Shown here in pieces: positions 17,060 to 48,077 of a stretch of DNA of 64,000 nt. Source of the stretch: a virus. The stretch is taken from the IMG/VR virus record IMGVR_UViG_3300031851_000014, positions 4,146 through 68,145 of that record. One strand, given 5' to 3'. Every line of letters starts with the position of its first letter. Position 1 is the stretch's first letter. The notes under the pieces are model-generated. The model was not told the origin of the DNA. It saw only the letters and a program-made list of their open reading frames with translations, and did not search any database. Both the position numbers and the translations under genes were made by a program.

Positions 17060-17286
17060 TGGCTAAGAAAAAAAGCGAAGGCTTAAAAAAATGGTTTAGT
17101 AGAAATAATGGTAAGGGCTGGATTGATTGTAAAACAGGTAAACCCTGTGGTCGTAAATCTGCCAAGGGTAAAAGCAAAAGAGCTTACCCCGCTTGCCGTC
17201 CTACTAAGTCTCAGTGCAATTCTAAAGCCAAGACTAAAAAGGGACCAGCACGTATCTCGTGGAAGAAAGGTAAAAAGAAAAAATGA
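17059..17286 (+). CDS. Basic small phage protein (GLKKWF...WIDCKTGKPCGR...YPACRP family)
   Basis: Overlapping stop/start junctions; recognisable motif. Confidence 0.7.
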   Translation: MAKKKSEGLKKWFSRNNGKGWIDCKTGKPCGRKSAKGKSKRAYPACRPTKSQCNSKAKTKKGPARISWKKGKKKK

Positions 17287-19466: not shown

Positions 19467-20114
19467 ATGGGCTACATACTGGCCGGTACGATGATTGCAG
19501 GAAGCGTCTTAGGAGGAATTGGAGGGCGGCAAGCTGCAAAAGATAAACGAGCAATGGAAGTTGCTCAGTATAATGATAGAACAATTAAAGAAGCTTGGAA
19601 CTCAGGTAAACAGATCTTTGGAGTCGCTAATGCTAATGCAATGAAGCGATTACAGAACCAAATGAATGCTGAACAAATGGCTAGGAATTATGCTAGAGGC
19701 CGTATGAATCTTCAAACAACTACAGAAGATAGACGGCAGGCTATGTCAGAAAACCAACGATTAACTGTTGCTGCTAATAATATTAGAATTACTCAGAAAA
19801 TGGGTACTAACTCAGGTACAGCAGAACGTATTCGTGAGCAAATGAAACACAAGGGAGCTAAGAACTGGGAGACAGAGTTCTTTAATAATCTTGATGCAGA
19901 AGAAACTATTAAAAAACAGTATCGGAATAATCTTAATCAAATTGATGACTCTATGCAGCAAGCAGATGGTTATGTACCCGGTCTACGGCCATCAGATCCT
20001 AATACAACATGGGCAATAATTAATGGCGCTCTGGGCGGAGCTGTAACGGGCGCACAATTAGGATCCTCTGCGGGTGGTTCTTTTAAACAAAGCGAAGGTA
20101 TCACCGGATGGTAA
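19467..20114 (+). CDS. Internal virion/ejection protein (T7 gp14-like)
   Basis: Gly-rich hydrophobic N- and C-terminal segments, helical centre, about 200 aa, first of three ejection-type genes. Confidence 0.65.
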   Translation: MGYILAGTMIAGSVLGGIGGRQAAKDKRAMEVAQYNDRTIKEAWNSGKQIFGVANANAMKRLQNQMNAEQMARNYARGRMNLQTTTEDRRQAMSENQRLTVAANNIRITQKMGTNSGTAERIREQMKHKGAKNWETEFFNNLDAEETIKKQYRNNLNQIDDSMQQADGYVPGLRPSDPNTTWAIINGALGGAVTGAQLGSSAGGSFKQSEGITGW

Positions 20115-24384: not shown

Positions 24385-27300
24385 ATGCCTATTAATTTCA
24401 GTAGTGAGAACTACTCTAAAAACGCAGTTGATTTTTATAACTCTGTTCAACAAGAAAAAATGAACGAGATTTTTAAAACACCAAAACTTTCCGATATTAC
24501 GGAACAATACGAACAAAGAGTTAAAAACACTTCCTTTGCACTTCAATATGGAATGGCCGCTGAAGCAGCTTTAGATGAAGAAGAAGCAAAAACGGTATCA
24601 GAAGAATACGACAATATTATGTACAATTCTTTTGCCCCATTTCGGTTAGATCCTAAGGAAGTTAACGAACGTATTGCTAGGGATAATAGAGAATCTTTAA
24701 GAATGATTAAAGTTGCTAACGAAGCGGGAATTGAAAATCTTCGTTTTGAAGGCGGAGAAGAGTTTAAAAAAACGATTCAATATGCTATGGCTTTCCCTTT
24801 AACAGCCCCTAATGTAATGAATAACCGTTTAATTGGATACGTACCTGATAACTTAGGAGGTACTTTCTATGACTTAAGCGAGTCGTGGTCTGAGGCTTCT
24901 TATACAAACGCTATTAATGCACATAAAGTAATGTCTATGTTTGGTCAAGTACCTGAGTCTGTATCACGAGGGGCTAGTATGACAATAGCCGACGATCAGA
25001 CAAAGGGATCTATTAAGATGCTTCTTGATATGATTAAAAAAGAAAACGCAACCTTTGATCCTAGTTACGATGAAAACTTTGTGTTAAGGCAATCAGAAGC
25101 AATGGCTTTAGAAGACAGTGTTTCTTGGAATAAAAACGCCGGATTTTTTGAAGGAGCGGGAAGGTTTCTTGTATCGAGTTTTGATACTTTAGGAGGAGCA
25201 TTTACTAACTTTGGAGATGATGGTCCTGTTTTAGATTTTCTTGGGTATAAAGATAAAATTTGGATGGGGGATAAAGAGACAGAAGGAATTAGAGATCTTC
25301 TTTTAAACGCCATTGAAACATCAGATAACTTGGATCCTAAAATTAAAGATTGGTTATCTAATAACCCCGATGTTCTTGATCTCTTAAAGAACTCATCAAA
25401 CGGTGCTGCTTTTACTGCTGGTTTAAATGAAAAACGTTTTCAATATAAAGCAGCGGTATTAGAACAAGAAACACAAGGTAACAAAACATTTGGAGCTTAC
25501 GCAAAAATCTTTGGTCATGGCTTTATGTTAGATCCTACTTTAGGTCTTGACATTGCTGCTACTATTGGAACAGGTGGTTTAAAAGCAGGTGGTATGATTA
25601 CTAGAGGGGGTCTTAGAGCAACAGGAAGGTTACTTTCTTTAGGTACTTCAAAACAGCTTGCGTCAAGAACTGGTTTATTAACCCGATTAAATAGGCAGTC
25701 TATTGCTGCTCTTACTAGAGAATCTAAATTTTTTAGGTTATCTAATTTTTTAAAAAAAGGTACAGACCAACTTAGTTTGTTACAGAAAGTTATGCCTACT
25801 CAGATTTTATCTGAATTATTAGTACCCCTTAGTAGACGATTACTTACTTCAGGTAAAGACGAGGGTGTTGATTTACTTACTTATTTAAAAGGTAATGACT
25901 ACCTGCCTAAATCGGTAACAGGTAAAGCTATGTACAGAGCTATTGCCGGATCGGTTGAAGGATTAGTTTGGGGAAGAATTGAATATTCTTATGCGGCTGC
26001 TTATGAAGATTCTTTAAATGTTGCTATGTTTGGTCAAGAACAAGCTGATGTTTTATCGTATATGAGAAACCAATCGGGAGCAATGACCCAATCTATGTTA
26101 ATGGGCGGTGTCATGGGCGGTCTTTTAGGACCAGCTATTGGTGGAACGTTTGATGCTGCTGGTGCAAGTGTTACAGGAACAGCTAATCTTATTAATAAGT
26201 GGTCAGAAGTAAGCCCTGATAACTGGCTTAATAAAACAACAGCATTTGCTGAAAAGAACTTTAACGAAAGAATCGCAAAAACATCTTGGTGGAATGTAAC
26301 TAAATCTATTATTAATGTAGCTACAGAAAATAATATGACAGCAGACGCACGACTTAGTGTAAATAAAGCTATTCCTAAAATTGAGTTTGGTCAAACTGAT
26401 GAATCCGCATCTAATAGTGCTAGAACGTTAGAAGAAAAATTATATCAATTATCAGAAAAATCACATAACTCAGGAGCTGTTAATTTTCAAAAAGCCGTTG
26501 ATGAAGTAGTTAATAGTATTCCCGAAGGTGAAACTGTTAGTGCTGAAGCTTTTACTATTAGAGTAGAAAACGCTTTAGTAAATCAAGTCCAAGATAGAGC
26601 AATAAGATTAGGTTTGCGTTATACTCTAGTTACAGGAACTGTTAAAACACTTACTGATTTTGAGAGTGACGCAAAAAGAAATGAACTGACTAACGATGGT
26701 AAGCCAGCAGAACCAGTAACAAAAACTGAAGGTAATGAATTTTCAGTAGAAGCTGAAAGATTAGCTGAAGTAAAGAAAACAAAAGAAACAGAATTAGCAG
26801 CCGAAGAAGAAAAAATTGAAAAATTAAGAGAAGCTTTAGCCGCTAAAAGAGAAGCCAACAAAAATAACCCAGACGAAGCAGATACTGAAGGTGTTGCTAA
26901 ATTAGAAGAAGAAATTAAAGAAGCTTCTACTACTATTGAAAATATGGATAAAGATATTAAAGAAGTAGGACTTCAAGTAGCTCAAGCAGCAGCAAACTAT
27001 GCAGCTACTAATAAAGAAAGCGTTATTACAAACCAAGCAGTTTTTAATAAACTACTTAAAGAAAAACTGTTAGACGATATCAATAAACAAGAAGATATGC
27101 ATCCAATTGCTGCTATGATGCTCTTTGGTATGGATGAAACTTTAGTAAGAAAAATGAAAAACGGAGCTACTCTAGAACAAAAAGCAGTGTTAGATAAACT
27201 ACTTGCTTTAAACCCTGATGATGCTCCATTAGATTCTAATGAGATTGCTTCTCTTAAAGATGTTATTGAAGATAATTTCTTAGAAGAAATCGGCAAAGGA

Positions 27301-30300
27301 GATGAAGTAGTTCCTCATACTTTATTTGATCAATTAATTAAAGAAGGTATTTCAACAGAGTCAGCCTTTAATGAAGCATATAACTTCTCGTTTGAAGAAC
27401 TTGCTGCCGATGACGCTAGAAGAGGACAAGCTATTCTTGTAGACGAAGAAGGTAATTCACTACTTACTAAAGAACAGCAGACATCACTAAATGAAGCTAT
27501 TGCAAAAGTAGCTGCTATTAGAGATAAAATTAATGAGGGTAATGTTGAAGATTTAAACTTTAATAAAGCAGTTCTTAATGAGTTAGCTGAAGCTTTGGGT
27601 ATTGAAAAGCCTAATAAGATTAAAGATAAAACAAAACTTGCTGCTAAAATTAAAGAAGCTTGGGACAATGCAACTCAAGAACAACGAGATGCGTATGACA
27701 ATATTATTATTGATAGAAACTTTACAGATGATATCTTTAAAAGTAAAGCGACTCAAAACATTGAAGCAGTCATTAGAGAAGCCGTTGAAGAACAAGCTGA
27801 TGATTTAGTTACACGAGAACAACAAAAAGCACGAGATGAAAGCGACGAGTATCAGAATACAACAGATGAAATTGACGAAGCTTTAGCACCGTTCAGGGAA
27901 CAGAAAAGAAATGCAGAAACTGCGCCTAATGCAGATAGGGCAAGATCTAATGAAGCAAGTACTAATTTGATATTACTCGGTTTAGTAGAAGCTAATAAAA
28001 TAAACGATATGCGTACACAAAAGTTTATTAATCTTCTATCAGAAGGACAATTTGGAGCAGCTCTTGAAATGCTTGTGGTGCGTGAAAGCGATGATCCACA
28101 GCAAATAAAAAACAATAAGTGGGCTATGGCTATGGAGAAAGGCATTGGAACGTCACTTTCTGTTAAAGAGATGATGGCAAGGGCTAGGGATGGTAAAGAT
28201 CCTAACGCAGCCCAGTATCTTCGGAGTGAACTTCCTAGAGCGTGGAGAGAAAGAGGCGATGGTCTTAAGATTAATACTATCGAAGTAGATGAACAAATTA
28301 AGTCCGCTAGAGACTATTTAGCGGAGAACGGAACAGATCAACAGAAGAAACATTTCGCTGCTTTAGAGAAAAAACAAAAGAGCCAAAGAGAAGCTATTGA
28401 TCGTATTATTGAAAGTAGAAGACAAGATATTATCGATAGAAAAGTTAGGCTTGCTGCTGAACGTGTTATAGCTGAGTCTAGACCAGCTATTGGATTTGTT
28501 AAACCTATCTTAAAAGCATTGCAGTCTATTAACGGCCATATTATTAGAGCTAAGAACAGCCCTAAAAATGTTACCGGTAGTATTGAAACTGAGTTTTCTT
28601 ACGATATTTCAATCAATAAAGAAGAACTTATTGGTGTTCTTAAAGCTAATAACTTATTGGGATTAATGCTACGAATTGATACTGAATCTGGGGCATTAAA
28701 TAAAAAAGTGGATTCTTACGATTCTAAAATTGTTATGAATGCTCTCCAAGATAAATTAGTCTCAGTAGCACCCGCTTTAAGGGATACTTTTATTCCCGGT
28801 TTACAACGAATTTACGATAATATGTATAACAATAAGATTGATGGAACAGGTCTCTATAAAGGAGATGGATCAATACGAAACTTATTAGATTCCATGGAAG
28901 ACGTATTAGATGAAGAAGCAAGTTTCTATACTACACAGTTTAATAATAACGGAGGTAGGTATTACGATAATAATAATGCTTATACTTTAGATGCTGATTC
29001 TTGGGATAGTGATTTTACTAGAGCTATTAATAGATTAGATTTTGGCGATTACTTTAATGATACTCCGTCAATTACCCCAGAACAAAAAGCAGCTCGTGTT
29101 TTAAATGATTTAAATGATAGTTTAGGGAATAGAAAACTTACTCGTCCTAACGAATTAGGATCAACAAGAGCAGCGTTAGGCCCAAAGAGAGCAGCACGAG
29201 CCGTTAGAAGCGCACTGTTAGGGGAAAAGGCTACTACATCTTCTGTGTCTGAAACGTCTCTCGTGGTCACAGGTGGACGCAGAGAGGCAAAGAGAACCTT
29301 GGGTGCTAATAGAGCAACAGGTATTCAAAAAGAAACTGATAGCCAGCTTATTAATATGTTTGATGAGTACGTTGTTCAAAAACGTCAAGGATATTTCTTA
29401 GATGATGATCTTACTGATGAAGACTTAGATGTATTAGAAAATTGGTTAGAGAACTTAAAAGTCAAAGATATTCCAAATAGAGTTAGAGCAGAAAACAGTT
29501 TGTTACCTACCCCTGTTATTAGATCTTTGACTGAAAAACTTCCTCAAAACATTAAAGAACGGGTTGAGCAAAATAAGATTAATATGCTTAGAAGCGATCC
29601 AGCTTTTATGTCTACAGTTCATGATGCTATTTTCCCTATGTTATCTTCTGAGATTAGTACAAGCGGACAACATTTTGCTTGGAACTTCTCAAAACAAGAT
29701 AAAGATGGGAATACTTTTTATCCCTTTAGGGGATTAGGATTTGGTTTCCCTATTGCAGATGCTAGGCCAGATACAATTAATGCTGCCTTAGCTGCTGCTA
29801 CTGAAATTACCTTTAATTACGAAAACTTAATTTCTACTGCTTTTGAAACATGGAAAAGCGGAAAGTGGCGTAGTAAACTTAAGCCAGAAACACGAGAAAA
29901 CGTCCCCGAAGATATGTCATTTGGTGAATTTTTCTTTGGTGGTGAAATTGAAAAGTTATCTGTAGAAGAACAAAAAGCTATTTCAGAAGAGTTGTTCCCT
30001 ACTATTGGAGAATTCGATGCTGATGCTTCTGGTAATAACGTCATGGTTTCAATTGTTAATGGCGTTGAAGGAGCAGGAGCTACTAGAGATTTCTTATCTG
30101 AATTAGTAAAAGAAGTAGATGCGGGTCGATTAGATGAGTTTTTAGAATCTAACTATAAAACATCTTATGAAAGAACTAAAGAAATTGTTCAAAATGATTT
30201 AAACGATCCTACTACTAGAGAAGCAGTTAAAAAGGCAGCTTCCAGAGGAGAGGCTAGTCCTGATCTTGATGAGGCTATTGAAATTTCAGCTAAAATCTTT

Positions 30301-33300
30301 AATTACGCTGATGCAGACGGTAATCCTTTATTAGATCTTAAAGCAATTATGAAAAATCCTAGTATGACCCAGCCTTACGGGGCGGGAGTAGGATCTATGG
30401 CTAAGGCTATTTATGAAAACTTCTTTGTGACATACAGAGATAAACTTATTAGTGATAATGAGATTCCCCTTACTACATCTAACTTTGAACGTATGGCTAG
30501 AACAGCTTCTCAGTTATTAGCAAACGGTTTTCATGAAAGCTCTGCTAAAGAAGGATTATCTTGGGTTAATACTAACTTGTTTGGTAAAGGCTCAAATATG
30601 AATAACGAAAAGCTTAGAACCGTATTAACTAAGTTTAGAAGCGTTAGGAAAAGCCTTACAGGAGCTTCTACTCTTAGAGGATCAGGGGATGCAATTAAAG
30701 ATCCTACTGGTCTTAGAGCAATGGTTGCTGATAACGAATCAAAACAACAGGAACTTAATTCTATTATTGACGGTAATAGACCCATTGAGTTGTCTGAAGC
30801 TGATTCGTTTAATAACCTTCTTCGTCAAATGATGGGTCAGGCTGTTGTTCTTACTGACAACGGATTTGCTAAAAACAACACTGAGTCAGCAAACGGAATT
30901 AGAAAACTTATTATGAATATGGTAAGAGATGCTGAAGGAAATACAGATCTTCAAGATGCCATTAAAAATAAGAATTATCCTGAAGCCCGTAGATTATGGA
31001 AAGATATTACAGATCAAGATGAGATTAATAATATCAAATTATCGTCTTTAAACAGTTATATTCGTCAGGCACATAAATTCGATTTAGAGAAATTTAAATC
31101 ATTGCTTACATCTTTAGGATTAGAAGAAGAGTTTGCTATGCAAATTTTCGATAATTTATCTCCTATGGGTAGAAAAGCATTTGTTCAAAACTTCTTTAGG
31201 GAATTAGCTATTGGTCCTGATCACGGACGTATCTATACTAAAACTACCGAAGGACCAGATTTATTAATTGAAAAGTTAGTGCGTCCTGATGAAACCGCCG
31301 CTTTTTCAATTGCTGGTATGAAGCCAGATAATCTTTCTCGTGATCCTGAGGTGTTTGACGCTGAAATTAGAAGATTGACTTTACTTGACTTGGCTAAAAA
31401 AGCATCTTCTTTTGTTGAAGACGAAGATATGCCTGTTCTTTCTAAAGGTAAGTTTGAGTCTTCTACTCACGGAGGATTTTTAAACGAGTGGAAAAACCAT
31501 AGTGAATTGTCACGTAAATTAAGAAAAAACGCTAAAGATCAAATTAGACGTATTGATAATCTTTTATTTGAAGATATGGATAACGGACAAAAAGAAAAAT
31601 TAGATGTCCTTAGAAAAATGCTGTCTAAAATTGTTGATAGCGGTACTGATGCAAGAGACGGAACTATTGATGATCTTATGGTAGGTATTACTGGAAGTGA
31701 AATGCAACAGCAGGTTAATGCGCTTCCTAGTGCTTTAGGTTATTTACCTAAAACTTTCTTATCTGACTTTAACGATGCTCCTGCTACTATTCTTCGTAAG
31801 GCTCAGTTAGAGCGAACACAAAACGTTAAAACAATGCGATCTTTAGAGAAACAAATTAAAGACAAAAGAGTTACTGTGCAGCAAGATCCTTTCACAATAG
31901 AAGAATTAGCTTATGTTAAAACATTAGATAATATTGATGATATCAAACCTATTGCTTTTAAATCAATGTTACCTACCTCTGTTTTTGATACAGTAGCATT
32001 AAACATTTCAGATTCTCCTTCATTAAGAACAACTAGAGCTGTACTTCAAACAGAATTAGACAACTTTGTAGATAACGTAAAAAACTTAGGAGGAAACAAA
32101 GTATTAGAAGAAGCAGCATCAAAGGGTAAGTATGATGTTGTATTATTACATTACTTTGCTACATTAGCTAATAAAGAAGCTATGAAGACAAGGCAAGACA
32201 TTGCTTTAGCTTCTTCTGCTTTTGAAAAACAAAAAAGAGATTTTGTTGACTCTTTAGAAGAAACAGACCCAGATAAAATTATTAACGCTATTAAAAACAA
32301 TAGATCATTACAAGATATGGAGAAAAAATTAAATCTTCTTATCGAAGCTTCTCTTTTAGAAGAAGAAAGTACATTACGTAGTTTAACGCAATGGGGATTT
32401 GACGCAAAAAGAAATATTACGGATTTATATGATCTTAGGGGAGAATCGGTTGATTCTGTTTTCCCCGGTCAAACCATTGAAGAAGCTATTCAAAATACTA
32501 TTGTTAATAACGATGTTACAGCCGGTAACTTATTAGCGTGGTTGGCTAACGATGCTGAGTTTTTAGGGCAGGTCTTATTAGACGATCCTAATTCTAGATA
32601 TGTAGATAGCTACGGTGGTGATAACCCTGAACGCGCTTTAAATGCTCTTGGTGTTTTCTCTACTGGTGACTCTCCTTCTTTATACTTAAGTGCTTACGCT
32701 CAAAACTACGCTAAGAGGTATACTGTTTCTGCTATTTTAGGTAAATCACAAGATAAAATTACATCAGCAGAAATTCAAGCTTATAGAATTTGGAAAGATG
32801 CTAAGTATAAGTTAGATTCTGAAACTATGGATCGAATTAAAACAGACTTTCCTGAATTAGTAGAAGCATTAGAAAAACCAGAAAATTTAAAAAACATTCT
32901 TACATTAGAAGCAGAAGGACTTAAGCAAGCTACTAAAGCTTTTGATAATACTGCTTTGTTGTCTGAAATTACTAGAAACATTCCTTTAACAGAATCAGTT
33001 GCTGCCGACCTTTTAGAAAGGTATCCTAATATTGAAACAATAATTGGTAAAGTTAGCCCCGATATGACTCTTGAACGATTACTGTCTAGTAAGTCTGAAA
33101 ACTTACTTGGTGGAAAGCATAAAGCTTTAGTCAATCAGTTTGGAGACGTTACAGCTCCTCATAGAATTATCGGTAATGCTAAAATTAAACTAATGGCGGG
33201 TGAAAAATTAAATACTGTAAACTCAATTGGTAGTAAAGATATGATTGACGCTATAAGGTTTACTTCAACTCTTAGTTTAGAGTCTCTTCCTTTTGGAAAA

Positions 33301-36300
33301 AGTTTAGGAGATAACATTACCGGCCATGACCCATTTACTAAATTTGGATCATCTATTAGTAAAACTCGTAGACAAGCCGCAATTCTTAGTGAGGCTATTA
33401 AAGGTTTAGTTAAAGGTAAACCAGAAGCTGAGTTTGTTGTAGACAAACGAAATAGTTTTATTTCAGAAGGTAAAGCAAAACAAGCAGAGTTTGTTACTTA
33501 CAGTAATGCTCAAATTGAAGCTGCTCTTTCATCAGCAGAACAAACTATGGCACAGGGTATTTTAAGAGATTTAAACTTAACTCCGGTAGAATTAGATAAA
33601 ATCTTTAATACAGACGATAACGTAGCTAGAAATAAAAACGATGTTTACAGAGCTGCTAGACTTGTCCCGTTTTTATCTGAAAATAGCTCTGAATATAATA
33701 TCTTTAAAAAACAACAAGCCATTAAAGACAGTTTAAAAGGAAAACGAGCTGTTAATGATTTAGATGCGTTTAACGATTTTAAAGATAATGTTCTTCCTAT
33801 TTTAACAGAAATTAAAAAAGCTATTCAAACTAAAAAACAAAATGCAATTAAAAACGATCCAGATTTTAAAAGCAATGATATTAACAGTGTTGATCTTGTT
33901 GATGATTGGTTTACTAGTACTATTAGAAGTGCCGATATAGCTGATGATAACAACACTCCTGTTGTTAACGGTAATCAAGTGTATGACAGTCAATCTGTTG
34001 AATCTGCAAAAGTAGGAGCGGTAGCTAAAGCAGAACAAACTTCTCTTTTAGATAGAACAGACGGCAGTGAAGCTATGAAGGGAGTTAATACGGTAGACTT
34101 TGCGTTTAGCGATAAACAGTTTATTGATAATGGTCCCGAACACCTTAGATTTATTGAAGCTATTAACCCTCTTGTAACAAGAGGCGTTTTAACTAACGAT
34201 GATAAATTACTTCTTAAGATTGTTTTTAATGATAGGTCTAACAATACAATGTTAAAGCAGTTGTTTGATGAAGATGATTCTGTTACTATGGTAGCTAACG
34301 ACGCTAATGTCAGTTTATCAGATACAAGTGCAGCAACACTTAGAACAAGAATTGAAGTAGCTAACAATTTAGCTAAACAATTTGATAAAATCGGTAAGTT
34401 AGGTGCTGCTGGGGTTGTACTAGAAGAGTTAGGCCACGCTATTGGTAAACGAATGAGTAAAGACGGAATGCAATCGTTTATCATTAGAGCAAAGCAGTTA
34501 TTAAAAGATGAAGACGGTTTTAATGCTTTTATAGCTCTTGAAAAAGAATTATTTGGTGCTGAAACTAGAGTAGATTATAGTAACAGAGTTGAACACATTC
34601 GTAAATTTATTGATGAAGAAGACATTAAAGCGGTACGTAGTAATGAAACTTTTGGTATTTTATTCGCTATTACTTCTATTTTAGGGAAAGATACACGAGC
34701 TTTACTTAATGAGGATACTGATATACTTGCTAAATTGTATAGTGATTCTAATCATTATATTTCTCGTTTGCGTTCTTATTATAGTGTAGCCGAATCTTCT
34801 CCTGTAAGTATTGATGATCTTACTCACCCTATGAATATTGAGGCTAATTTACATAAAGTTGTTTATAATAATCCAGACGAGATTTCAAGCGAGATGATTG
34901 GAGGTGACCCTCGTCCAGATTTTAAACCCAACCATTTATATAATAGAGCCACAGAAGTAGGAACACTTCCAGAACAAAGAGAAGCATATTTAGATGAAAA
35001 CATTAAAGCTGCTACTATAGCAGATGGTAGGTTTAATCCTAATTTATTAGATAATAATACACAAAATAAATTAAGAGCTGTCACAAAACATTTAGATAGT
35101 TTCGTTAAAGATGCTAGTAAAGGCACTCTTATTGATAGTCCTATGTTTACTCTAATGGCTAATGCTTCTATGGGATTAATGTCAAGACAAACTGTTGAAA
35201 AACTTATGCTTAATTTAGCGCAGCCATTTGGGGCAAGACGATTTGCGTTTTTAGCTAACAATAAAGATGGGCAGTCTGGTATTTCTTTACTGTTATTAGG
35301 AATGGTCGATACAAAAAATCTTGTGTCTACATCATCTTTTAATACCGCTCTTCCTACTATGCAAGGACTTCAAGTTCATTTAGATGGTGTTTTTGAACCT
35401 CTTATGAAACCTTTGTTAGATCTTAAAAGAATTAACTCTACTAGAGGTATGACAGGCGTTGCTTCTTATCAAGCCTTTACAGGACTCTTTTGGAAAATGG
35501 TTATGAACAGAGACGGCGATTCAGGAGCAATTACAGGATGGGCCGGTAAAACTAAAGCTAAACAAATCGGTATTGCTGAATTAGATAAAATCTATAAAAA
35601 AGCAAACGAAGAACTTCCTTTTGATCCAGAAACAGGCAAAATTACTGATCCTGAATTAGATCATACATTAGATATCTTAGTTGAAACCGCAAGAGCTTGG
35701 GCTGATCCTAAAGATGGTGTATATCAACAAATTTTAACGGCTCAAGTTGATAACGGTAGGTTTGATTCTACCTTTGCAGCGGAAGCTATTATGAGTGGTG
35801 TTGTCCCTATTAAATTTGCTGATGAATTATTTACAAGAGGTGAAATGGCTAATAATCCTGATCTAAGAGAAACATTTAGAAAAGCCTTTGCTGATCATTT
35901 ATACAGCACAATGACAGACAGAAACAATAAATTTATCCACGAAGATTTATTTTCTTTAGTTTTTGCTGATAGGCTAGAAGGAGATATTGATGCTCCTACT
36001 CGTATTACCGGAATGGATTTAGCTAGTGGTGTTTACCAGAAGTATTTAGACGAAGCTTCAACACCCGCTGATGCGTGGGCTAACTTTACAAATGATATAA
36101 AACAAGGTAAACTGAGCAAATATGATTTATTAAGCGGAGAAGAGTTACAATATTTTTACGAGTCGATTAACCAAGAAAATATTACCGTATCAGAAAAACA
36201 GAATAAAATGATGAATAATATCGAAAATAGGCTTGATAGTAAGACACCTAGATCTGGTAAAAAATCATCTTCTAGTGCTAACAAAGAAAGACTTATTGAG

Positions 36301-38370
36301 TTTGTAGCAGAAGAGTATGCTTTAACATCTGGTTCTTCTGCCTATAGTTTCATAAACGATAGGTTTGTAGATAACGCTAGACTTTTAGATGATCCTAACA
36401 TTGAGAGGTTTCTTAATGTTGACCCGCTTGAAGTTTTTGATGCTGTCAAACGAGGTCAAGCAGGACAAGCCTTTGATAGGCAAATTGTTGGTAATGCTTT
36501 AGGTATGCAAGGATTTGGCGTAGGTGATTTAATTAGATTACTTCGATACGCTAATGAAGACTCTACTTTTAAACCTGAACATGTTATTGTAAACTCTAAT
36601 TTACAGGGTTATGAAAAGAGAACTTTAGGTAAAACAGAGCAACAAAAATATTCTAAAGTTTTAGAGTATTTAGAAGATGCCTACCATATGGCTATGGGTA
36701 ATTTGTCTTACGATAAGACAGATAAAAGTTCTATTGGTTTTATTAGTATGCTTACTACTATTGCTGACGCTGGTACAGCTTTAAGTGTTGGCCCTCGTTT
36801 AGGCATGGCGGCATTACTTGAAGAAACCCCTATGGCTATTATCGGTGAACTTAAATCATCCTTAGATTCTATTAGACAAGAAGGGCGTGAATCTATTGGC
36901 TTCTTTAAAAACTTAGGAAACAGAGAAGCTCTTCAACAGTGGATCCAAGGAATGGGACATATTACCAGAGATTTACAACGAGAGTCTAGTACTCTTATGT
37001 TAAAGATGGGTATCGACCCTAAGCAAATTAGTCAAAACAGAGCAGACAAAGCTGTCCAACGAATGTATAAAGTTTCATCTACAGGATTAGATTATCAAAC
37101 AGCCATTAACCGCGCCCGTGGTGTTAGGAAATGGATTAATGAATTAAACTCTATGTTTGTAAATGAGGCTAATGCAGATATTTCATTTACTCATTCGGAT
37201 GGTCATACTGTTTCTGTTTCTTCTCGAAACCTTAAAAGTAACGCATCCTTTGATACGGTTTACGAAGTTGTGCAAGGAATGGGAGATCTTACTCGTTATA
37301 CATCTACTGAAATTAAAGATAATTTAAAACAACTTAAACTTTCTGCTGAAACATTAGATGCTGTTATTGACATGATGAGAAATGGTTTATTCTCAGAAGA
37401 GTTAGCTCCTATCTTTAAAAAACTTTGGTTAGAAAACTACAATACCATAATTAAACAAGGAATCCCATTTGAAGAAATGATGAAAACAATTAACTTTGAT
37501 TATAATTCTTCAGCTAAAGAAAGAGCGCAAACATCTCAGGTTATCATGGCTCTTAGAGAAATTGCCTTTAATGCGTCAACCAGATACGCTAAACAGCCTA
37601 CTCTTTCAGAGAATGCTGCTTTAGGTTCTAGAAGACTTGGTGCTTTCTCTAGGTTAGTTACTCAATTAACAAACTATGCCTCATCTGTGTTTGGGTCATT
37701 GAGAAAAGCGCAAACTGTAAGCCCAGCGTTATTTGCCTCAGCTTTCTTAGGTCACGCTATATCGGGATACATGTATTATAAGTTAGTTCAAATGCAAAAC
37801 TCTAAGACTTTTGAAGAAATTCTAAAAGAATGGGAAAAAGACCCTATGTCAGAAATTAGAGATGCCCTAATGTCAGTTCCTTTCTTTGGTATGAATCAAA
37901 TGCCTATTGTGGCTCTTACACAGGTGTTGCGAGGAGAAAGACCTCAAAACACCCAGATATTTAACTTTGCTTCGTTGGCTATGATTAATAAGATTCTTCA
38001 GTTACCCGCTAAAACAATGAAAAGCGTTGGTGATATTCAAGAGGGTAATATCTCACGCGGCGCAGCTAACATGTCATCTACTGTTCCCTTACCGTTTATG
38101 CCTATTGTGTCACTCGGGTTAAGGTCTTGGGATACTAAGATGCCTTTGTTTGGATTTAAAGATAATTCTAAGAAAATACAAAGACCTAAAAATCCTCCAA
38201 AGATTACTAAGTCTACGCCTGCTACAACTTCTGCAACGGAACCAAATGTAGATGCAATGAGACAGCGTAAACCTGAGACGACACCACGTCAGGAATTAGA
38301 CAGTCTTAATACGACTCCTGAGAGTCTAACAGAAGCTCTTAATCAAAGGTTTATACCAAAGCCATATTAA
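24385..38370 (+). CDS. Giant ejection protein (gp16 position, 4661 aa) with an embedded single-subunit RNA polymerase-like domain (putative virion RNAP)
   Basis: Motif A-like GEFDADASGNN (30007-30039); motif B-like KAIMKNPSMTQPYG (30340-30381); Gly-rich membrane-active N-terminal segments; no Cys seen. Confidence 0.7.
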   Translation: MPINFSSENYSKNAVDFYNSVQQEKMNEIFKTPKLSDITEQYEQRVKNTSFALQYGMAAEAALDEEEAKTVSEEYDNIMYNSFAPFRLDPKEVNERIARDNRESLRMIKVANEAGIENLRFEGGEEFKKTIQYAMAFPLTAPNVMNNRLIGYVPDNLGGTFYDLSESWSEASYTNAINAHKVMSMFGQVPESVSRGASMTIADDQTKGSIKMLLDMIKKENATFDPSYDENFVLRQSEAMALEDSVSWNKNAGFFEGAGRFLVSSFDTLGGAFTNFGDDGPVLDFLGYKDKIWMGDKETEGIRDLLLNAIETSDNLDPKIKDWLSNNPDVLDLLKNSSNGAAFTAGLNEKRFQYKAAVLEQETQGNKTFGAYAKIFGHGFMLDPTLGLDIAATIGTGGLKAGGMITRGGLRATGRLLSLGTSKQLASRTGLLTRLNRQSIAALTRESKFFRLSNFLKKGTDQLSLLQKVMPTQILSELLVPLSRRLLTSGKDEGVDLLTYLKGNDYLPKSVTGKAMYRAIAGSVEGLVWGRIEYSYAAAYEDSLNVAMFGQEQADVLSYMRNQSGAMTQSMLMGGVMGGLLGPAIGGTFDAAGASVTGTANLINKWSEVSPDNWLNKTTAFAEKNFNERIAKTSWWNVTKSIINVATENNMTADARLSVNKAIPKIEFGQTDESASNSARTLEEKLYQLSEKSHNSGAVNFQKAVDEVVNSIPEGETVSAEAFTIRVENALVNQVQDRAIRLGLRYTLVTGTVKTLTDFESDAKRNELTNDGKPAEPVTKTEGNEFSVEAERLAEVKKTKETELAAEEEKIEKLREALAAKREANKNNPDEADTEGVAKLEEEIKEASTTIENMDKDIKEVGLQVAQAAANYAATNKESVITNQAVFNKLLKEKLLDDINKQEDMHPIAAMMLFGMDETLVRKMKNGATLEQKAVLDKLLALNPDDAPLDSNEIASLKDVIEDNFLEEIGKGDEVVPHTLFDQLIKEGISTESAFNEAYNFSFEELAADDARRGQAILVDEEGNSLLTKEQQTSLNEAIAKVAAIRDKINEGNVEDLNFNKAVLNELAEALGIEKPNKIKDKTKLAAKIKEAWDNATQEQRDAYDNIIIDRNFTDDIFKSKATQNIEAVIREAVEEQADDLVTREQQKARDESDEYQNTTDEIDEALAPFREQKRNAETAPNADRARSNEASTNLILLGLVEANKINDMRTQKFINLLSEGQFGAALEMLVVRESDDPQQIKNNKWAMAMEKGIGTSLSVKEMMARARDGKDPNAAQYLRSELPRAWRERGDGLKINTIEVDEQIKSARDYLAENGTDQQKKHFAALEKKQKSQREAIDRIIESRRQDIIDRKVRLAAERVIAESRPAIGFVKPILKALQSINGHIIRAKNSPKNVTGSIETEFSYDISINKEELIGVLKANNLLGLMLRIDTESGALNKKVDSYDSKIVMNALQDKLVSVAPALRDTFIPGLQRIYDNMYNNKIDGTGLYKGDGSIRNLLDSMEDVLDEEASFYTTQFNNNGGRYYDNNNAYTLDADSWDSDFTRAINRLDFGDYFNDTPSITPEQKAARVLNDLNDSLGNRKLTRPNELGSTRAALGPKRAARAVRSALLGEKATTSSVSETSLVVTGGRREAKRTLGANRATGIQKETDSQLINMFDEYVVQKRQGYFLDDDLTDEDLDVLENWLENLKVKDIPNRVRAENSLLPTPVIRSLTEKLPQNIKERVEQNKINMLRSDPAFMSTVHDAIFPMLSSEISTSGQHFAWNFSKQDKDGNTFYPFRGLGFGFPIADARPDTINAALAAATEITFNYENLISTAFETWKSGKWRSKLKPETRENVPEDMSFGEFFFGGEIEKLSVEEQKAISEELFPTIGEFDADASGNNVMVSIVNGVEGAGATRDFLSELVKEVDAGRLDEFLESNYKTSYERTKEIVQNDLNDPTTREAVKKAASRGEASPDLDEAIEISAKIFNYADADGNPLLDLKAIMKNPSMTQPYGAGVGSMAKAIYENFFVTYRDKLISDNEIPLTTSNFERMARTASQLLANGFHESSAKEGLSWVNTNLFGKGSNMNNEKLRTVLTKFRSVRKSLTGASTLRGSGDAIKDPTGLRAMVADNESKQQELNSIIDGNRPIELSEADSFNNLLRQMMGQAVVLTDNGFAKNNTESANGIRKLIMNMVRDAEGNTDLQDAIKNKNYPEARRLWKDITDQDEINNIKLSSLNSYIRQAHKFDLEKFKSLLTSLGLEEEFAMQIFDNLSPMGRKAFVQNFFRELAIGPDHGRIYTKTTEGPDLLIEKLVRPDETAAFSIAGMKPDNLSRDPEVFDAEIRRLTLLDLAKKASSFVEDEDMPVLSKGKFESSTHGGFLNEWKNHSELSRKLRKNAKDQIRRIDNLLFEDMDNGQKEKLDVLRKMLSKIVDSGTDARDGTIDDLMVGITGSEMQQQVNALPSALGYLPKTFLSDFNDAPATILRKAQLERTQNVKTMRSLEKQIKDKRVTVQQDPFTIEELAYVKTLDNIDDIKPIAFKSMLPTSVFDTVALNISDSPSLRTTRAVLQTELDNFVDNVKNLGGNKVLEEAASKGKYDVVLLHYFATLANKEAMKTRQDIALASSAFEKQKRDFVDSLEETDPDKIINAIKNNRSLQDMEKKLNLLIEASLLEEESTLRSLTQWGFDAKRNITDLYDLRGESVDSVFPGQTIEEAIQNTIVNNDVTAGNLLAWLANDAEFLGQVLLDDPNSRYVDSYGGDNPERALNALGVFSTGDSPSLYLSAYAQNYAKRYTVSAILGKSQDKITSAEIQAYRIWKDAKYKLDSETMDRIKTDFPELVEALEKPENLKNILTLEAEGLKQATKAFDNTALLSEITRNIPLTESVAADLLERYPNIETIIGKVSPDMTLERLLSSKSENLLGGKHKALVNQFGDVTAPHRIIGNAKIKLMAGEKLNTVNSIGSKDMIDAIRFTSTLSLESLPFGKSLGDNITGHDPFTKFGSSISKTRRQAAILSEAIKGLVKGKPEAEFVVDKRNSFISEGKAKQAEFVTYSNAQIEAALSSAEQTMAQGILRDLNLTPVELDKIFNTDDNVARNKNDVYRAARLVPFLSENSSEYNIFKKQQAIKDSLKGKRAVNDLDAFNDFKDNVLPILTEIKKAIQTKKQNAIKNDPDFKSNDINSVDLVDDWFTSTIRSADIADDNNTPVVNGNQVYDSQSVESAKVGAVAKAEQTSLLDRTDGSEAMKGVNTVDFAFSDKQFIDNGPEHLRFIEAINPLVTRGVLTNDDKLLLKIVFNDRSNNTMLKQLFDEDDSVTMVANDANVSLSDTSAATLRTRIEVANNLAKQFDKIGKLGAAGVVLEELGHAIGKRMSKDGMQSFIIRAKQLLKDEDGFNAFIALEKELFGAETRVDYSNRVEHIRKFIDEEDIKAVRSNETFGILFAITSILGKDTRALLNEDTDILAKLYSDSNHYISRLRSYYSVAESSPVSIDDLTHPMNIEANLHKVVYNNPDEISSEMIGGDPRPDFKPNHLYNRATEVGTLPEQREAYLDENIKAATIADGRFNPNLLDNNTQNKLRAVTKHLDSFVKDASKGTLIDSPMFTLMANASMGLMSRQTVEKLMLNLAQPFGARRFAFLANNKDGQSGISLLLLGMVDTKNLVSTSSFNTALPTMQGLQVHLDGVFEPLMKPLLDLKRINSTRGMTGVASYQAFTGLFWKMVMNRDGDSGAITGWAGKTKAKQIGIAELDKIYKKANEELPFDPETGKITDPELDHTLDILVETARAWADPKDGVYQQILTAQVDNGRFDSTFAAEAIMSGVVPIKFADELFTRGEMANNPDLRETFRKAFADHLYSTMTDRNNKFIHEDLFSLVFADRLEGDIDAPTRITGMDLASGVYQKYLDEASTPADAWANFTNDIKQGKLSKYDLLSGEELQYFYESINQENITVSEKQNKMMNNIENRLDSKTPRSGKKSSSSANKERLIEFVAEEYALTSGSSAYSFINDRFVDNARLLDDPNIERFLNVDPLEVFDAVKRGQAGQAFDRQIVGNALGMQGFGVGDLIRLLRYANEDSTFKPEHVIVNSNLQGYEKRTLGKTEQQKYSKVLEYLEDAYHMAMGNLSYDKTDKSSIGFISMLTTIADAGTALSVGPRLGMAALLEETPMAIIGELKSSLDSIRQEGRESIGFFKNLGNREALQQWIQGMGHITRDLQRESSTLMLKMGIDPKQISQNRADKAVQRMYKVSSTGLDYQTAINRARGVRKWINELNSMFVNEANADISFTHSDGHTVSVSSRNLKSNASFDTVYEVVQGMGDLTRYTSTEIKDNLKQLKLSAETLDAVIDMMRNGLFSEELAPIFKKLWLENYNTIIKQGIPFEEMMKTINFDYNSSAKERAQTSQVIMALREIAFNASTRYAKQPTLSENAALGSRRLGAFSRLVTQLTNYASSVFGSLRKAQTVSPALFASAFLGHAISGYMYYKLVQMQNSKTFEEILKEWEKDPMSEIRDALMSVPFFGMNQMPIVALTQVLRGERPQNTQIFNFASLAMINKILQLPAKTMKSVGDIQEGNISRGAANMSSTVPLPFMPIVSLGLRSWDTKMPLFGFKDNSKKIQRPKNPPKITKSTPATTSATEPNVDAMRQRKPETTPRQELDSLNTTPESLTEALNQRFIPKPY

Positions 38371-38397: not shown

Positions 38398-38429
38398 GGG
38401 AGTCTATAGATTTCTTTCTATAGACTCCC
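38398..38429 (+). other. Perfect 13-bp inverted repeat
   Basis: GGGAGTCTATAGA-TTTCTT-TCTATAGACTCCC, followed by an AT-rich tract. Confidence 0.65.
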
Positions 38430-39760: not shown

Positions 39761-39793
39761 CTTCCACTATCACGTGTCTCGAAAGGACATACA

Positions 39794-39877
39794 ATGATTA
39801 ATATTATTGCTCTGATTGTGCTTATTGTTGTTTGTGCTGTTATGACTTTTCTTCCTCTTATTGATACTGACGACTGA
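39794..39877 (+). CDS. Single-TM micro-peptide (27 aa)
   Basis: Read manually: MINIIALIVLIVVCAVMTFLPLIDTDD; GAAAGGA RBS. Confidence 0.55.
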   Translation: MINIIALIVLIVVCAVMTFLPLIDTDD

Positions 39878-39888
39878 AGGAGGTGTAC

Positions 39889-40104: not shown

Positions 40105-40109
40105 TAGCG

Positions 40110-47921: not shown

Positions 47922-48077
47922 ATGTACGGTAAAGGAGATAAGTATAGAGATGTCGATAAGAAAAAATACGATAAAGAGTACGATAAAATTTTCGGTAAGA
48001 AAAAGTTAAACAATATAGAAAGTAATTCTAAATGCAAACATGGAAAGACCACACGAAAGAAGAACAAACGAGGCTGA
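47922..48077 (+). CDS. Basic micro-protein (GKGDK.R.VD...Y...YDKIF family)
   Basis: AAGGAGGT RBS. Confidence 0.65.
   Translation: MYGKGDKYRDVDKKKYDKEYDKIFGKKKLNNIESNSKCKHGKTTRKKNKRG

What the first reader, a model, noticed from the sequence alone, without database searches (positions are those of the whole stretch)
24385..38370. Second RNA polymerase hidden inside a 4661-aa ejection protein (N4-like virion RNAP in a T7-like phage)
Seen: residues 1875-1885 GEFDADASGNN (D1878, nt 30016) align with single-subunit RNAP motif A (T7 AFDGSCSG; N4 EADGVTNG). K1986-x3-K1990-x7-Y1998-G (KAIMKNPSMTQPYGAG) matches motif B Rx3Kx7YG and closely resembles N4 vRNAP KNPLTITIYGSG. The A-to-B spacing is 112 aa. 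Known: the N4 mini-vRNAP D559-K670 spacing is 111 (T7 is 94); N4 vRNAP is a ~3500-aa Cys-free protein injected with the DNA; T7-type phages normally rely on host RNAP for the first early transcripts and have an enzymatically different gp16. Inference: this phage has a gp16-position ejection protein fused to a virion RNAP, in addition to its ordinary T7-type RNAP.
Basis: partly seen in the sequence, partly recalled or inferred. Interest (0 to 1): 0.95.

Follow-up and report, generated by a model that had tools for sequence, protein, structure and literature searches.

The report
Hidden RNA polymerase in giant phage protein
A 4,661-residue, cysteine-free protein of an uncultured marine T7-like phage carries a very diverged RNA-polymerase module like that of coliphage N4's injected enzyme, so this phage probably brings its own polymerase into the cell in addition to encoding a normal T7-type one.

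Summary
The ORF at 24385-38370 encodes 4,661 aa with no Cys, and both motifs sit where stated.

The motifs are not chance. D1878, D1880, K1986, K1990 and Y1998 are invariant in 10 of 10 distinct homologues that share only 23-75% identity. A profile of the family matches a profile of N4-like virion RNAPs across motifs A to B: hhalign score 64.6, probability 90%, E 2e-6. Controls scored 13-28. In two low-confidence AlphaFold models, the only well-modelled part (aa ~1922-2058) has T7 RNAP and human mitochondrial RNAP as its best structural matches among 48,161 PDB chains (Z 7.2-8.5).

The phage is T7-like by terminase, portal and its own 848-aa RNAP.

Four things remain open:
- catalytic activity;
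- packaging into the virion;
- the palm fold;
- motif C. The best motif-C match is the invariant VHDA at D1747, which lies upstream of motif A. This suggests a permuted C-A-B order.

The scan reached the same reading earlier on a related genome (e1-5890148, e1-5890162). I judge this a new variant of the N4 virion-RNAP kind.

The parts
24385..38370 (+). Giant gene: 4661 aa, no cysteine, last gene of the cysteine-free trio that follows terL
   Evidence: Full-length homologues of 4525-4746 aa occur on independent contigs.
29983..30456 (+). aa 1867-2024: segment homologous to N4 mini-vRNAP 546-704 (motif A through motif B)
   Evidence: hhalign score 64.6, probability 89.6%, E 1.9e-6. Reversed and column-shuffled controls scored 13.5-25.1, and other segments of the protein scored at most 28.5.
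30016..30039 (+). Motif A-like DADASGNN (D1878, D1880, S1882, G1883, N1885)
   Evidence: Invariant in 10 of 10 homologues. It aligns to N4 EADGVTNG and is one of the densest invariant clusters in the protein.
30340..30381 (+). Motif B-like KAIMKNPSMTQPYG (K1986, K1990, M1994, T1995, Y1998)
   Evidence: Invariant in 10 of 10; G1999 in 7 of 10. In window scans its best partners are N4 K670+4 (score 27.2) and T7 K631+4 (score 23.2), with 0 of 1000 permutations reaching either score.
30148..30558 (+). aa ~1922-2058: fingers-like helical subdomain, the only reasonably modelled part
   Evidence: VIA-align gives T7 RNAP 3e2e_A at Z 7.2 and 8.5, and human mtRNAP 9mn4_E at Z 6.5 and 8.1. They rank 1 and 3 for one model and 1 and 2 for the other, among 48,161 chains.
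29599..29634 (+). PAFMSTVHDAIF (H1746, D1747): motif C-like block lying upstream of motif A
   Evidence: H and D are invariant in 10 of 10. It is the best family position for the motif-C windows of T7 RNAP D812, N4 D951 and T7 DNAP D654.
31636..31638 (+). D2418 (KI[IV]D[SA]): invariant Asp in the canonical post-B position, the alternative motif C candidate
   Evidence: Invariant in 10 of 10, but it shows no profile similarity to motif C beyond a runner-up score of 0.5 in T7.
31228..31230 (+). R2282 in (D/S)HGR(I/M)Y: weak T/DxxGR-like candidate downstream of motif B
   Evidence: Invariant in 10 of 10. The match to T7 R425 is not significant (score 1.9; 260 of 1000 permutations reach the best score for that window).
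19467..20114 (+). 215-aa cysteine-free protein, in the gp14 / N4 gp52 position
   Evidence: synteny in 5 of 5 related loci. No family hit.
20147..24373 (+). 1408-aa cysteine-free protein, in the gp15 / N4 gp51 position
   Evidence: No family hit.
48032..50578 (+). Ordinary T7-type RNA polymerase, 848 aa, with all four motifs
   Evidence: phrog_414 E 2.3e-148. PF00940 241.5 bits. Motif table.
17283..18977 (+). Large terminase, T7-like
   Evidence: phrog_38 E 3.7e-90. The nearest records are Autographiviridae-type phages at 36-42% identity.

Best explanation
The 4661-aa protein is the giant last member of a three-gene, cysteine-free ejection-protein cassette (215 aa, 1408 aa, 4661 aa) in a 68-kb T7-like marine phage. 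Its central part, roughly aa 1700-2300, is a very diverged single-subunit RNA polymerase module whose closest relative is the polymerase domain of coliphage N4 gp50.

Most likely mechanism, inferred by analogy with N4:
- The protein is packed in the capsid and threaded unfolded through the tail with its two partners.
- It transcribes the first genes of the entering genome, the higher-GC block from about 38.4 kb that includes the T7-type RNAP gene at 48032. This may also help pull the DNA in.
- The phage's own T7-type RNAP then takes over.
- The phage would therefore need no host RNAP.

Shown here: the gene is real and conserved; there is a homologous motif A-B segment with invariant catalytic-type residues; the fingers fold is RNAP-like; a separate T7-type RNAP exists; and the synteny and composition resemble the N4 and T7 ejection cassettes.

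Inferred: packaging, injection, catalytic activity, template and promoters.

The second catalytic Asp appears to be D1747 in an invariant VHDA block upstream of motif A. That would give a C-A-B motif order. This point is suggestive, not settled.
For: Conservation:
- In 10 of 10 homologues (23-75% identity), D1878, D1880, S1882, G1883, N1885, K1986, K1990, M1994, T1995, Y1998, H1746 and D1747 are invariant.

Profile-profile comparison (hhalign):
- Family against 10 Schitoviridae vRNAP domains: score 64.6, probability 89.6%, E 1.9e-6, aa 1867-2024 on N4 546-704.
- Family against 8 T7-type RNAPs (the ninth row of that alignment, L009, was a 104-aa wrong-strand read): score 48.4, E 1.3e-4.
- Positive control, N4 against T7: score 81.
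- Negative controls: reversed 17 and 24; 20 column shuffles 13.5-25.1; other parts of the protein at most 28.5.

Structure:
- In two separate AF2 models, T7 RNAP (Z 7.2 and 8.5) and human mtRNAP (Z 6.5 and 8.1) are the top RNAP rows among 48,161 chains.
- They cover the same residues as the sequence alignment (model aa 1922-2058 on T7 569-690).

Weak but concordant signals:
- phrog_414 'RNA polymerase' is the best of 38,880 PHROGs for aa 1401-2500 (E 0.038, at motif B).
- PF00940 hits motif B in 1 of 6 scanned homologue segments (16.9 bits, E 0.003).
- The ESM Atlas nearest clusters are PF00940 and N4 vRNAP families (score 0.89).

Context:
- N4 gp52, gp51 and gp50 have 0 Cys. So do the window's 215-aa, 1408-aa and 4661-aa proteins, against 1.91% Cys in 25 other ORFs.
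- The trio is conserved in 5 of 5 related loci.
- Both complete related genomes also carry a T7-type RNAP.

Literature:
- N4 vRNAP sits in an IVP-D homologue (PMC4819975, passages read).
- N4 gp50, gp51 and gp52 are ejected together (PMC13434306, abstract read).
Against: - No curated family is met. Pfam, PHROGs (E<=0.01) and PDB sequence searches find nothing for this protein, and PF00940 stays under its cut-off in every homologue.
- Both AF2 models are poor (pLDDT 44.0 and 47.8; pTM 0.25 and 0.31). Palm and thumb are not modelled, so no active-site geometry can be checked.
- The structural Z scores (7.2-8.5) are in the range the tool calls middling. N4 mini-vRNAP itself is not among the 50 rows listed in either VIA search.
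- Homology is detected for only about 150-190 columns.
- No canonical motif C follows motif B. D2256 is kept in only 3 of 10 homologues, and T/DxxGR is not found significantly.
- There is no sequence similarity to T7 gp14/15/16 or to the N- and C-terminal parts of N4 gp50.
- The C-terminal ~1000 aa are more conserved than the polymerase region (12.7% against 7.6% invariant).
- Packaging and activity are untested.
Confidence: 0.6

Rival explanations
1. The module descends from a polymerase but no longer polymerises. It would be a nucleic-acid-binding or DNA-handling part of an oversized ejection protein, for example holding the leading DNA end at the channel.
For: No canonical motif order was found. 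T/DxxGR was not detected and motif C is ambiguous. G1999 is replaced by Q or N in 3 of 10 homologues. Only about 150-190 columns are detectably homologous. The phage already has a complete T7-type RNAP.
Against: Relics lose catalytic residues. Here both motif A Asp, both motif B Lys, the Tyr and the HD pair are invariant in 10 of 10 homologues at 23-75% identity, and motif A is among the densest invariant clusters of the protein.
Confidence: 0.15
2. It is an active family-A-type polymerase of another specificity, such as a DNA polymerase, a primase-like enzyme or a template-independent nucleotidyl transferase, rather than a transcriptase.
For: The VHDA block matches the motif C window of T7 DNA polymerase (D654) better than that of any RNAP: score 19.1, with 0 of 1000 permutations reaching it. 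The hhalign score is 28.5 at aa 1725-1755 on T7 gp5 632-662. Kx7YG is also shared with PolA motif B, and its best PolA position is 526-529.
Against: Overall hhalign against a PolA profile gives only 1.9% probability, against 90% for N4 vRNAP. The top structural rows are RNAPs, and no PolA chain is among the 50 listed. The best Pfam, PHROG and ESM leads are all RNAP families. From recall: PolA enzymes carry a steric-gate Glu five residues after the motif A Asp, whereas here that position is G1883 or N1885, as in T7 and N4 RNAPs.
Confidence: 0.1
3. There is no polymerase module. The motifs are chance features of a huge low-complexity helical ejection protein.
For: Motif B alone appears in 5.2% of shuffles of so long a protein. 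No HMMER-level hit was found. The AF2 models are poor. Mostly helical models often give Z 7-8 by chance, according to the tool's own note.
Against: The profile-profile score is 64.6, against 13.5-28.5 in all controls. Sequence and structure alignments independently pick the same T7 residues, 567-690. The two top rows are RNAPs in two separate models. The motif residues are invariant in 10 of 10 homologues.
Confidence: 0.08

Closest known systems
Coliphage N4 gp50 virion RNA polymerase and Schitoviridae homologues (mini-vRNAP, residues 998-2103)
   Same: Both are giant (3500 against 4661 aa) and cysteine-free. Both are the last of a cysteine-free small-medium-giant cassette, with a central single-subunit RNAP module. 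Motifs A and B align in register (D559 on D1880, R666 on K1986, K670 on K1990, Y678 on Y1998), with the same A-B spacing of 110-112 against 111 aa. In both cases the phage also encodes a T7-related second RNAP. Divergent Schitoviridae members have (V/I)HDA at motif C, as this family does.
   Different: No HMMER-level similarity was found, and no N4-specific Pfam domain was detected in 0 of 6 segments scanned. The N- and C-terminal parts are unrelated. The HDA block lies before motif A rather than about 280 aa after motif B. The genome chassis is T7-like: terL, portal and a single 848-aa RNAP, with all genes on one strand. It is not N4-like.
T7 RNA polymerase / mitochondrial RNAP (PF00940 family)
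   Same: The fingers subdomain superposes (Z 7.2-8.5, T7 569-690). Motif B KxxxMTxxYG matches T7 KRSVMTLAYG. FDxxxSG resembles T7 FDGSCSG.
   Different: PF00940 is below its cut-off. hhalign probability is only 54%. No T/DxxGR was detected, and the motif order appears to be C-A-B. The module is embedded in a 4661-aa structural protein.
T7 gp16 (internal virion protein D) and the IVP/ejection cassette of podophages
   Same: It is the last and largest gene of a three-gene block with 0 Cys (T7 gp15 and gp16 also have 0 Cys). It is predicted to be mostly helical. The chassis is T7-like.
   Different: No sequence similarity was found, and no lytic transglycosylase domain was detected. It is 3.5 times longer. 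The block follows terL instead of preceding the tail fibre gene.
Permuted (C-A-B) palms of birnavirus and permutotetravirus RNA-dependent RNA polymerases (recalled, not tested here)
   Same: There is a possible relocation of motif C upstream of motif A in an otherwise right-hand polymerase.
   Different: Those are an unrelated polymerase class with RNA templates. Here the permutation is inferred only from sequence windows.

Membership tests
Single-subunit T7-type RNA polymerases (PF00940 superfamily, incl. N4 vRNAP) | Motif A: catalytic Asp on a strand, followed by a small or Gly residue (T7 D537, N4 D559) | tested here: met
   DADxSGxN is invariant in 10 of 10 homologues. hhalign pairs D1880 with N4 D559, while the T7 register pairs D1878 with D537.
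Single-subunit T7-type RNA polymerases (PF00940 superfamily, incl. N4 vRNAP) | Motif B: R/K-x3-K-x7-Y-G on the O helix | tested here: met
   K1986, K1990 and Y1998 are kept in 10 of 10, G1999 in 7 of 10. The window scan gives scores of 27.2 (N4) and 23.2 (T7), with 0 of 1000 permutations reaching either.
Single-subunit T7-type RNA polymerases (PF00940 superfamily, incl. N4 vRNAP) | Motif C: second catalytic Asp (HD or FD) located after motif B | tested here: not met
   After motif B, D2256 is kept in only 3 of 10, and the invariant D2418 has no motif C similarity (runner-up score 0.5). The motif C-like invariant VHDA (D1747) lies 131-133 aa before motif A.
Single-subunit T7-type RNA polymerases (PF00940 superfamily, incl. 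N4 vRNAP) | T/DxxGR motif upstream of motif A | tested here: inconclusive
   No significant match was found. The best candidate, R2282 (GRxY), lies downstream of motif B. Permuted profiles reached the best score for the T/DxxGR windows in 260 of 1000 runs (T7) and 156 of 1000 (N4).
Single-subunit T7-type RNA polymerases (PF00940 superfamily, incl. N4 vRNAP) | Pfam PF00940 at or above its gathering score (22 bits) | tested here: not met
   0 of 6 segments scanned reach the cut-off. 1 of 6 (L005) scores 16.9 bits, E 0.003, at motif B. The window protein has no hit.
Single-subunit T7-type RNA polymerases (PF00940 superfamily, incl. N4 vRNAP) | Right-hand fold (palm, fingers, thumb) | tested here: inconclusive
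   The fingers part matches T7 RNAP and mtRNAP (Z 7.2-8.5). Palm and thumb are below pLDDT 50 in both models.
N4-like virion RNA polymerase (Schitoviridae gp50) | Giant (>3000 aa) cysteine-free polypeptide with a central polymerase domain homologous to mini-vRNAP | tested here: met
   4661 aa with 0 Cys. N4 gp50 is 3500 aa with 0 Cys. hhalign 89.6%, E 1.9e-6, over 147 columns only.
N4-like virion RNA polymerase (Schitoviridae gp50) | N4-specific domains (Pfam vRNAP_dom_2, N4_RNAP_helical, vRNAP_plug) | tested here: not met
   None was listed at E<=10 in 0 of 6 segments. They appear only as ESM-feature neighbours at 0.88.
N4-like virion RNA polymerase (Schitoviridae gp50) | Preceded by two smaller ejection-protein genes (gp52, gp51) | tested here: met
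   The 215-aa and 1408-aa cysteine-free genes lie directly upstream, and this holds in 5 of 5 related loci. This is synteny and composition only; no sequence similarity was found.
N4-like virion RNA polymerase (Schitoviridae gp50) | Schitoviridae hallmark genome (N4-type portal, terminase, etc.) | tested here: not met
   The nearest listed relatives of terL and portal are T7-like phages (Autographiviridae where the record was opened) at 33-42% identity.
N4-like virion RNA polymerase (Schitoviridae gp50) | Packaged in the virion, injected, and transcribes early genes from hairpin promoters | not testable with these tools
   The phage is uncultured. The only lead is a repeated TTCCACTATCA element, some copies with a short hairpin, in the early region.
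T7 gp16 / internal virion protein D | Sequence or profile similarity to gp16, and an N-terminal lytic transglycosylase | tested here: not met
   No PHROG or Pfam hit. hhalign against T7 gp16 scores at most 21.5 (the template was a single sequence, so sensitivity is low).
T7 gp16 / internal virion protein D | Last, largest gene of the gp14-gp15-gp16 block of a T7-like phage | tested here: met
   Gene order and sizes. The chassis is T7-like. The block lies after terL, unlike in T7.

The most novel reading that the evidence does not exclude
The module is an active, injected RNA polymerase whose palm is permuted: motif C (VHDA, D1747) lies before motifs A and B. No such order is known to me (recall; no literature search on permuted palms was run here) for any family-A-type polymerase (T7 RNAP, mitochondrial RNAP, N4 vRNAP, Pol I). 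With it, a T7-like phage lineage transcribes its whole genome without host RNA polymerase: the virion enzyme first, then its own T7-type enzyme. The vRNAP would stay tethered to the ejection channel as a DNA-pulling motor.
Probability: 0.3. Interest if true: 0.9.

Novelty: new variant of a known kind. Interest (0 to 1): 0.75.

Why it matters
Virion-carried single-subunit RNA polymerases have been a hallmark of N4-like phages (Schitoviridae). This work points to a rare marine lineage of 68-73-kb T7-like phages. I recovered only about ten distinct sequences from the search of 1.84 billion representative proteins and the scans of two contig collections. This lineage carries an N4-type polymerase module inside its gp16-position protein, and the module is so diverged that HMMER-based annotation misses it.

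If it is active, three things follow:
- T7-like phages can be fully independent of host RNAP.
- The vRNAP-in-ejection-protein design is older or more mobile than one family.
- The family would offer a natural test of whether a family-A palm tolerates a C-A-B motif order.

It also supplies a new, very distant outgroup for studying how T7, mitochondrial and N4 polymerases are related.

Tried and rejected
Direct sequence searches gave nothing useful:
- Pfam gave only two unrelated sub-threshold rows.
- PHROGs at E<=0.01 gave none.
- phmmer and hmmsearch against PDB sequences gave none or irrelevant rows.
- tblastn of aa 1301-2450 against 50,697 phage records gave no match.

Searches for more homologues:
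- The search for homologous proteins gave only the protein itself plus P0002.
- With alignment A2 it gave nothing, in 'near' or 'longer' length mode.
- The MSA could therefore not be deepened beyond 10 distinct sequences.
- The metagenome scan added two new sequences, L013 and L016.

Structure prediction and fold search:
- Both AlphaFold2 jobs were poor.
- Foldseek against PDB with model 1, and against BFVD with model 2, gave no row at E<=0.001.
- N4 mini-vRNAP was not among the 50 rows listed by either VIA-align search.

hhalign runs that gave nothing significant:
- The whole-length profile against single sequences was not significant: the window's RNAP and N4 gp50. In one search the single best alignment was nevertheless motif B on motif B.
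- A global hhalign of the post-motif-B region against N4 was uninformative.

Candidates examined for motif C and T/DxxGR:
- D2256, the related reader note's motif C candidate, is rejected: it is kept in 3 of 10 homologues.
- D2418 is kept only as an alternative.
- R2282 as T/DxxGR is not significant.

Other checks:
- No similarity of the 215-aa protein, the 1408-aa protein or the N- and C-terminal parts of the giant to T7 gp14/15/16 or N4 gp52/51/50.
- Sigma-70-like promoters in the early region are not enriched: 19 found against 15.2 +/- 4.2 in shuffles.
- No high-copy phage-promoter 10-mer beyond TCCACTATCA.

Literature:
- Four searches found no paper describing a T7-like phage with a virion RNAP in its gp16-type protein.
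- Supplements were not available and were not consulted. The N4-like UViG tables of PMC10654107 could conceivably list relatives.
Full report
OBSERVATION

The window has an uninterrupted + strand ORF at 24385-38370 of 4661 aa. GEFDADASGNN begins at residue 1875 (nt 30007) and KAIMKNPSMTQPYGAG at residue 1986 (nt 30340). The protein has no cysteine.

- T7 RNAP has DGSCSG at 537, RSVTKRSVMTLAYG at 627 and HDSF at 811.
- N4 gp50 residues 998-2103 have MTRVGR near 420, D559, R666, K670, Y678 and D951.
- N4 gp50 is 3500 aa with 0 Cys.

In 2000 shuffles of the protein, the motif B pattern occurred in a fraction of 0.052. That pattern plus a loose motif A at 85-125 aa upstream occurred in 0.0025. In a single sequence the motifs are therefore suggestive but not decisive.

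THE GENE IS REAL AND BELONGS TO A RARE FAMILY

A phmmer search with aa 1301-2450 against 1.84 billion representative proteins found 6 proteins at E<=0.001. Scans of IMG/VR and of metagenome contigs found 6 and 5 loci respectively.

After removing duplicates and fragments there are 10 distinct sequences (P0004 is about L003, P0006 lies within L007, P0003 = L004 = L015, L005 = L006). Where complete they are 4525-4746 aa, and they are 23-75% identical to the window protein in the region studied. All have 0 Cys where counted.

Direct annotation fails:
- no Pfam family;
- no PHROG;
- no PDB sequence hit;
- no tblastn hit in 50,697 phage records.

CONTEXT

The window is bases 4146-68145 of a 68,145-bp viral record rated 99% complete. 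All large genes are on one strand. The order is:
- tail protein, fibre, and a 2221-aa Cys-rich protein;
- terL at 17283-18977;
- a 163-aa gene, a 215-aa gene, a 1408-aa gene and the 4661-aa gene;
- a higher-GC block of small genes from about 38.4 kb;
- a T7-type RNAP at 48032-50578 (phrog_414 E 2.3e-148; PF00940 241.5 bits);
- primase-helicase, DNA polymerase, exonuclease, RNR and portal.

The nearest relatives of terL, portal and RNAP are T7-like phages (Autographiviridae where the record was opened) at 24-42% identity. The window's RNAP has canonical T/DxxGR, A, B and C motifs. The 'T7-like phage with an ordinary T7-type RNAP' part of the reading is therefore correct.

The 215-aa, 1408-aa and 4661-aa proteins all have 0 Cys, against 1.91% Cys over 25 other ORFs. 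N4's ejected trio gp52, gp51 and gp50 is likewise entirely Cys-free, and T7 gp15 and gp16 have 0 Cys. The same small-medium-giant Cys-free trio precedes or contains the giant gene in 5 of 5 related loci. Both related genomes rated complete also carry an 859-aa T7-type RNAP. The three incomplete ones (72-82% complete) showed no such gene in the part held.

IS THERE A POLYMERASE MODULE?

(1) Conservation. Across the 10 sequences the following are invariant: H1746, D1747, D1878, A1879, D1880, S1882, G1883, N1885, K1986, K1990, M1994, T1995 and Y1998. G1999 is kept in 7 of 10. The motif A block is among the densest invariant 12-mers of the whole protein.

(2) Profile-profile comparison. I built profiles from 10 Schitoviridae vRNAP polymerase domains and from T7-type RNAPs (plus the window and relatives). 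The T7-type alignment had 8 usable rows plus one 104-aa wrong-strand row, L009.
- Family (aa 1690-2480) against the N4-like profile: score 64.6, probability 89.6%, E 1.9e-6, aa 1867-2024 on N4 546-704.
- Family against the T7-like profile: score 48.4, probability 54%, E 1.3e-4.
- The known N4-T7 relationship, scored the same way: 81, probability 95%.
- Controls: reversed family 17.1 and 24.4; 20 column-shuffled families 13.5-25.1; other segments of the giant protein at most 28.5.

The alignment pairs D1880 with N4 D559 (and D1878 with E557), K1986 with R666, K1990 with K670, Y1998 with Y678 and G1999 with G679.

(3) Structure. Two AlphaFold2 runs were poor overall: aa 1401-2500 with 6 sequences (pLDDT 44.0, pTM 0.25), and aa 1690-2480 with 10 sequences (pLDDT 47.8, pTM 0.31). 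Foldseek found nothing.

VIA-align drops low-confidence stretches and compares with 48,161 PDB representatives.
- Second model: T7 RNAP 3e2e_A at rank 1 (Z 7.2, rmsd 3.5, 100 residues; aa 1922-2058 on T7 569-690) and human mitochondrial RNAP 9mn4_E at rank 3 (Z 6.5).
- First model: the same two at ranks 1 and 2 (Z 8.5 and 8.1). They were the only chains with Z>=8.

These Z values are in the range the tool calls middling. However, the same two RNAPs top both lists, and the aligned T7 residues are those that hhalign chose independently (T7 567-687).

(4) Weak concordant signals.
- The best of 38,880 PHROGs for aa 1401-2500 is phrog_414 'RNA polymerase' (E 0.038, at motif B).
- PF00940 hits the motif B region of one homologue lineage (16.9-17.9 bits, below the 22-bit cut-off; 1 of 6 segments scanned).
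- The ESM Atlas nearest clusters are PF00940 and N4 vRNAP families at 0.88-0.89, which the tool treats as a lead only.

Together these make a polymerase-derived module very likely. I put it at about 0.85-0.9.

WHAT IS NOT ESTABLISHED

No canonical motif C follows motif B. D2256 is kept in 3 of 10 homologues. D2418 (KI[IV]D[SA]) is invariant but has no profile similarity to motif C.

The invariant VHDA block at 1745-1748 lies 131-133 aa before motif A. It resembles motif C of T7-type RNAPs (IHDS) and of the divergent Schitoviridae members (VHDA or IHDA in 3 of 10).

I ran ungapped 15-column profile scans of family positions 1450-2520. The template window centred on the motif C Asp picked family residue 1747 as the best of 1071 positions for all three templates:
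- T7 RNAP D812: score 8.0; 27 of 1000 permuted profiles reach it.
- N4 D951: score 4.2; 194 of 1000.
- T7 DNA polymerase D654: score 19.1; 0 of 1000.

hhalign against a three-sequence PolA profile also put its best, non-significant alignment there (score 28.5).

So the motif order may be C-A-B. I rate this at roughly even odds. It needs a structure.

T/DxxGR was not found significantly. No similarity to T7 gp14/15/16 or to the non-polymerase parts of N4 gp50/51/52 was detectable with single-sequence templates. The 'ejection protein' label therefore rests on synteny, size, helical character and the absence of cysteine.

MECHANISM

By analogy with N4 (abstract of PMC13434306; passages of PMC4819975), the most likely course is as follows:
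- The three Cys-free proteins are packed in the head and ejected.
- The polymerase module of the giant protein transcribes the leading early block, including the T7-type RNAP gene.
- The T7-type RNAP then transcribes the rest.

Two observations fit, but neither proves it. A repeated TTCCACTATCA element occurs 5 times within 39764-40915 (0.44 copies expected in the whole window), and several copies lie just upstream of small genes. Sigma-70-like promoters are not enriched there.

COMPARISON AND NOVELTY

A vRNAP embedded in a gp16-type (IVP-D) protein is already the accepted description of N4 gp50 (PMC4819975). N4 also pairs its vRNAP with a T7-related RNAP II.

What is new here:
- the chassis, a T7-like phage rather than Schitoviridae;
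- the extreme divergence, with no curated family met;
- the size;
- possibly the motif order.

Four literature searches found no description of such a phage. One paper merely guesses a vRNAP from size and lack of Cys in an unrelated podophage (PMC10747016, passage read).

The scan itself reached the same reading earlier on a related genome (e1-5890148, e1-5890162). I saw those notes only after my own tests, and I do not count them as evidence.

VERDICT
- Observation: confirmed.
- Interpretation: partly supported.
- Class: new variant of a known kind.
- Interest: 0.75.

Noticed in passing
window 39764-40915 (copies at 39764, 40248, 40421, 40552, 40907; one more at 60349): CCACTATCA occurs 6 times on the + strand, against 0.44 expected. 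Five copies lie within 1.15 kb of the early, higher-GC block. Two extend to TTCCACTATCATCC..GGGAA with a short hairpin and sit about 25 nt before a start codon. They are candidate phage-polymerase promoters upstream of the T7-type RNAP gene.
   Followed up: partly
window 38398-38429: A perfect 13-bp-stem hairpin (6-nt loop) lies 28 nt after the stop of the giant gene. It is a likely terminator closing the late operon. GC content jumps from about 35% to 45-50% just after it.
   Followed up: no
window 34420-34455 (aa 3346-3357) and aa 3600-4661 generally: The C-terminal ~1000 aa are the most conserved part of the giant protein (12.7% invariant columns against 4-8% elsewhere). Invariant blocks include LEELGHAIGKRM, RGQAGQAFDRQI, GYMYYKLVQMQN and MSVPFFGMNQMP. 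No known family was detected.
   Followed up: partly
window 5355-12020: A 2221-aa protein in the tail module has 91 Cys (4.1%), in sharp contrast to the Cys-free trio. It has no PHROG hit.
   Followed up: no
window 61080-62360 and 62357-62830: Two further ORFs (426 and 157 aa), just upstream of the portal gene, also have 0 Cys. The first has no PHROG hit.
   Followed up: no
window 46707-46779 and 47681-47765: tRNA-Lys(ttt) and tRNA-Leu(taa) genes lie in the early region, flanking a 177-aa ORF.
   Followed up: no
window 17283-38370: The internal-virion-protein block lies after the large terminase gene and appears to be the last transcription unit. In T7 it precedes the tail fibre and terminase genes.
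   Followed up: partly
L005/L006 (related contigs), giant ORF about locus 11651-11926: In this most distant lineage, the motif B region alone reaches 16.9-17.9 bits on Pfam RNA_pol. It is therefore the best entry point for anyone building a family model.
   Followed up: partly
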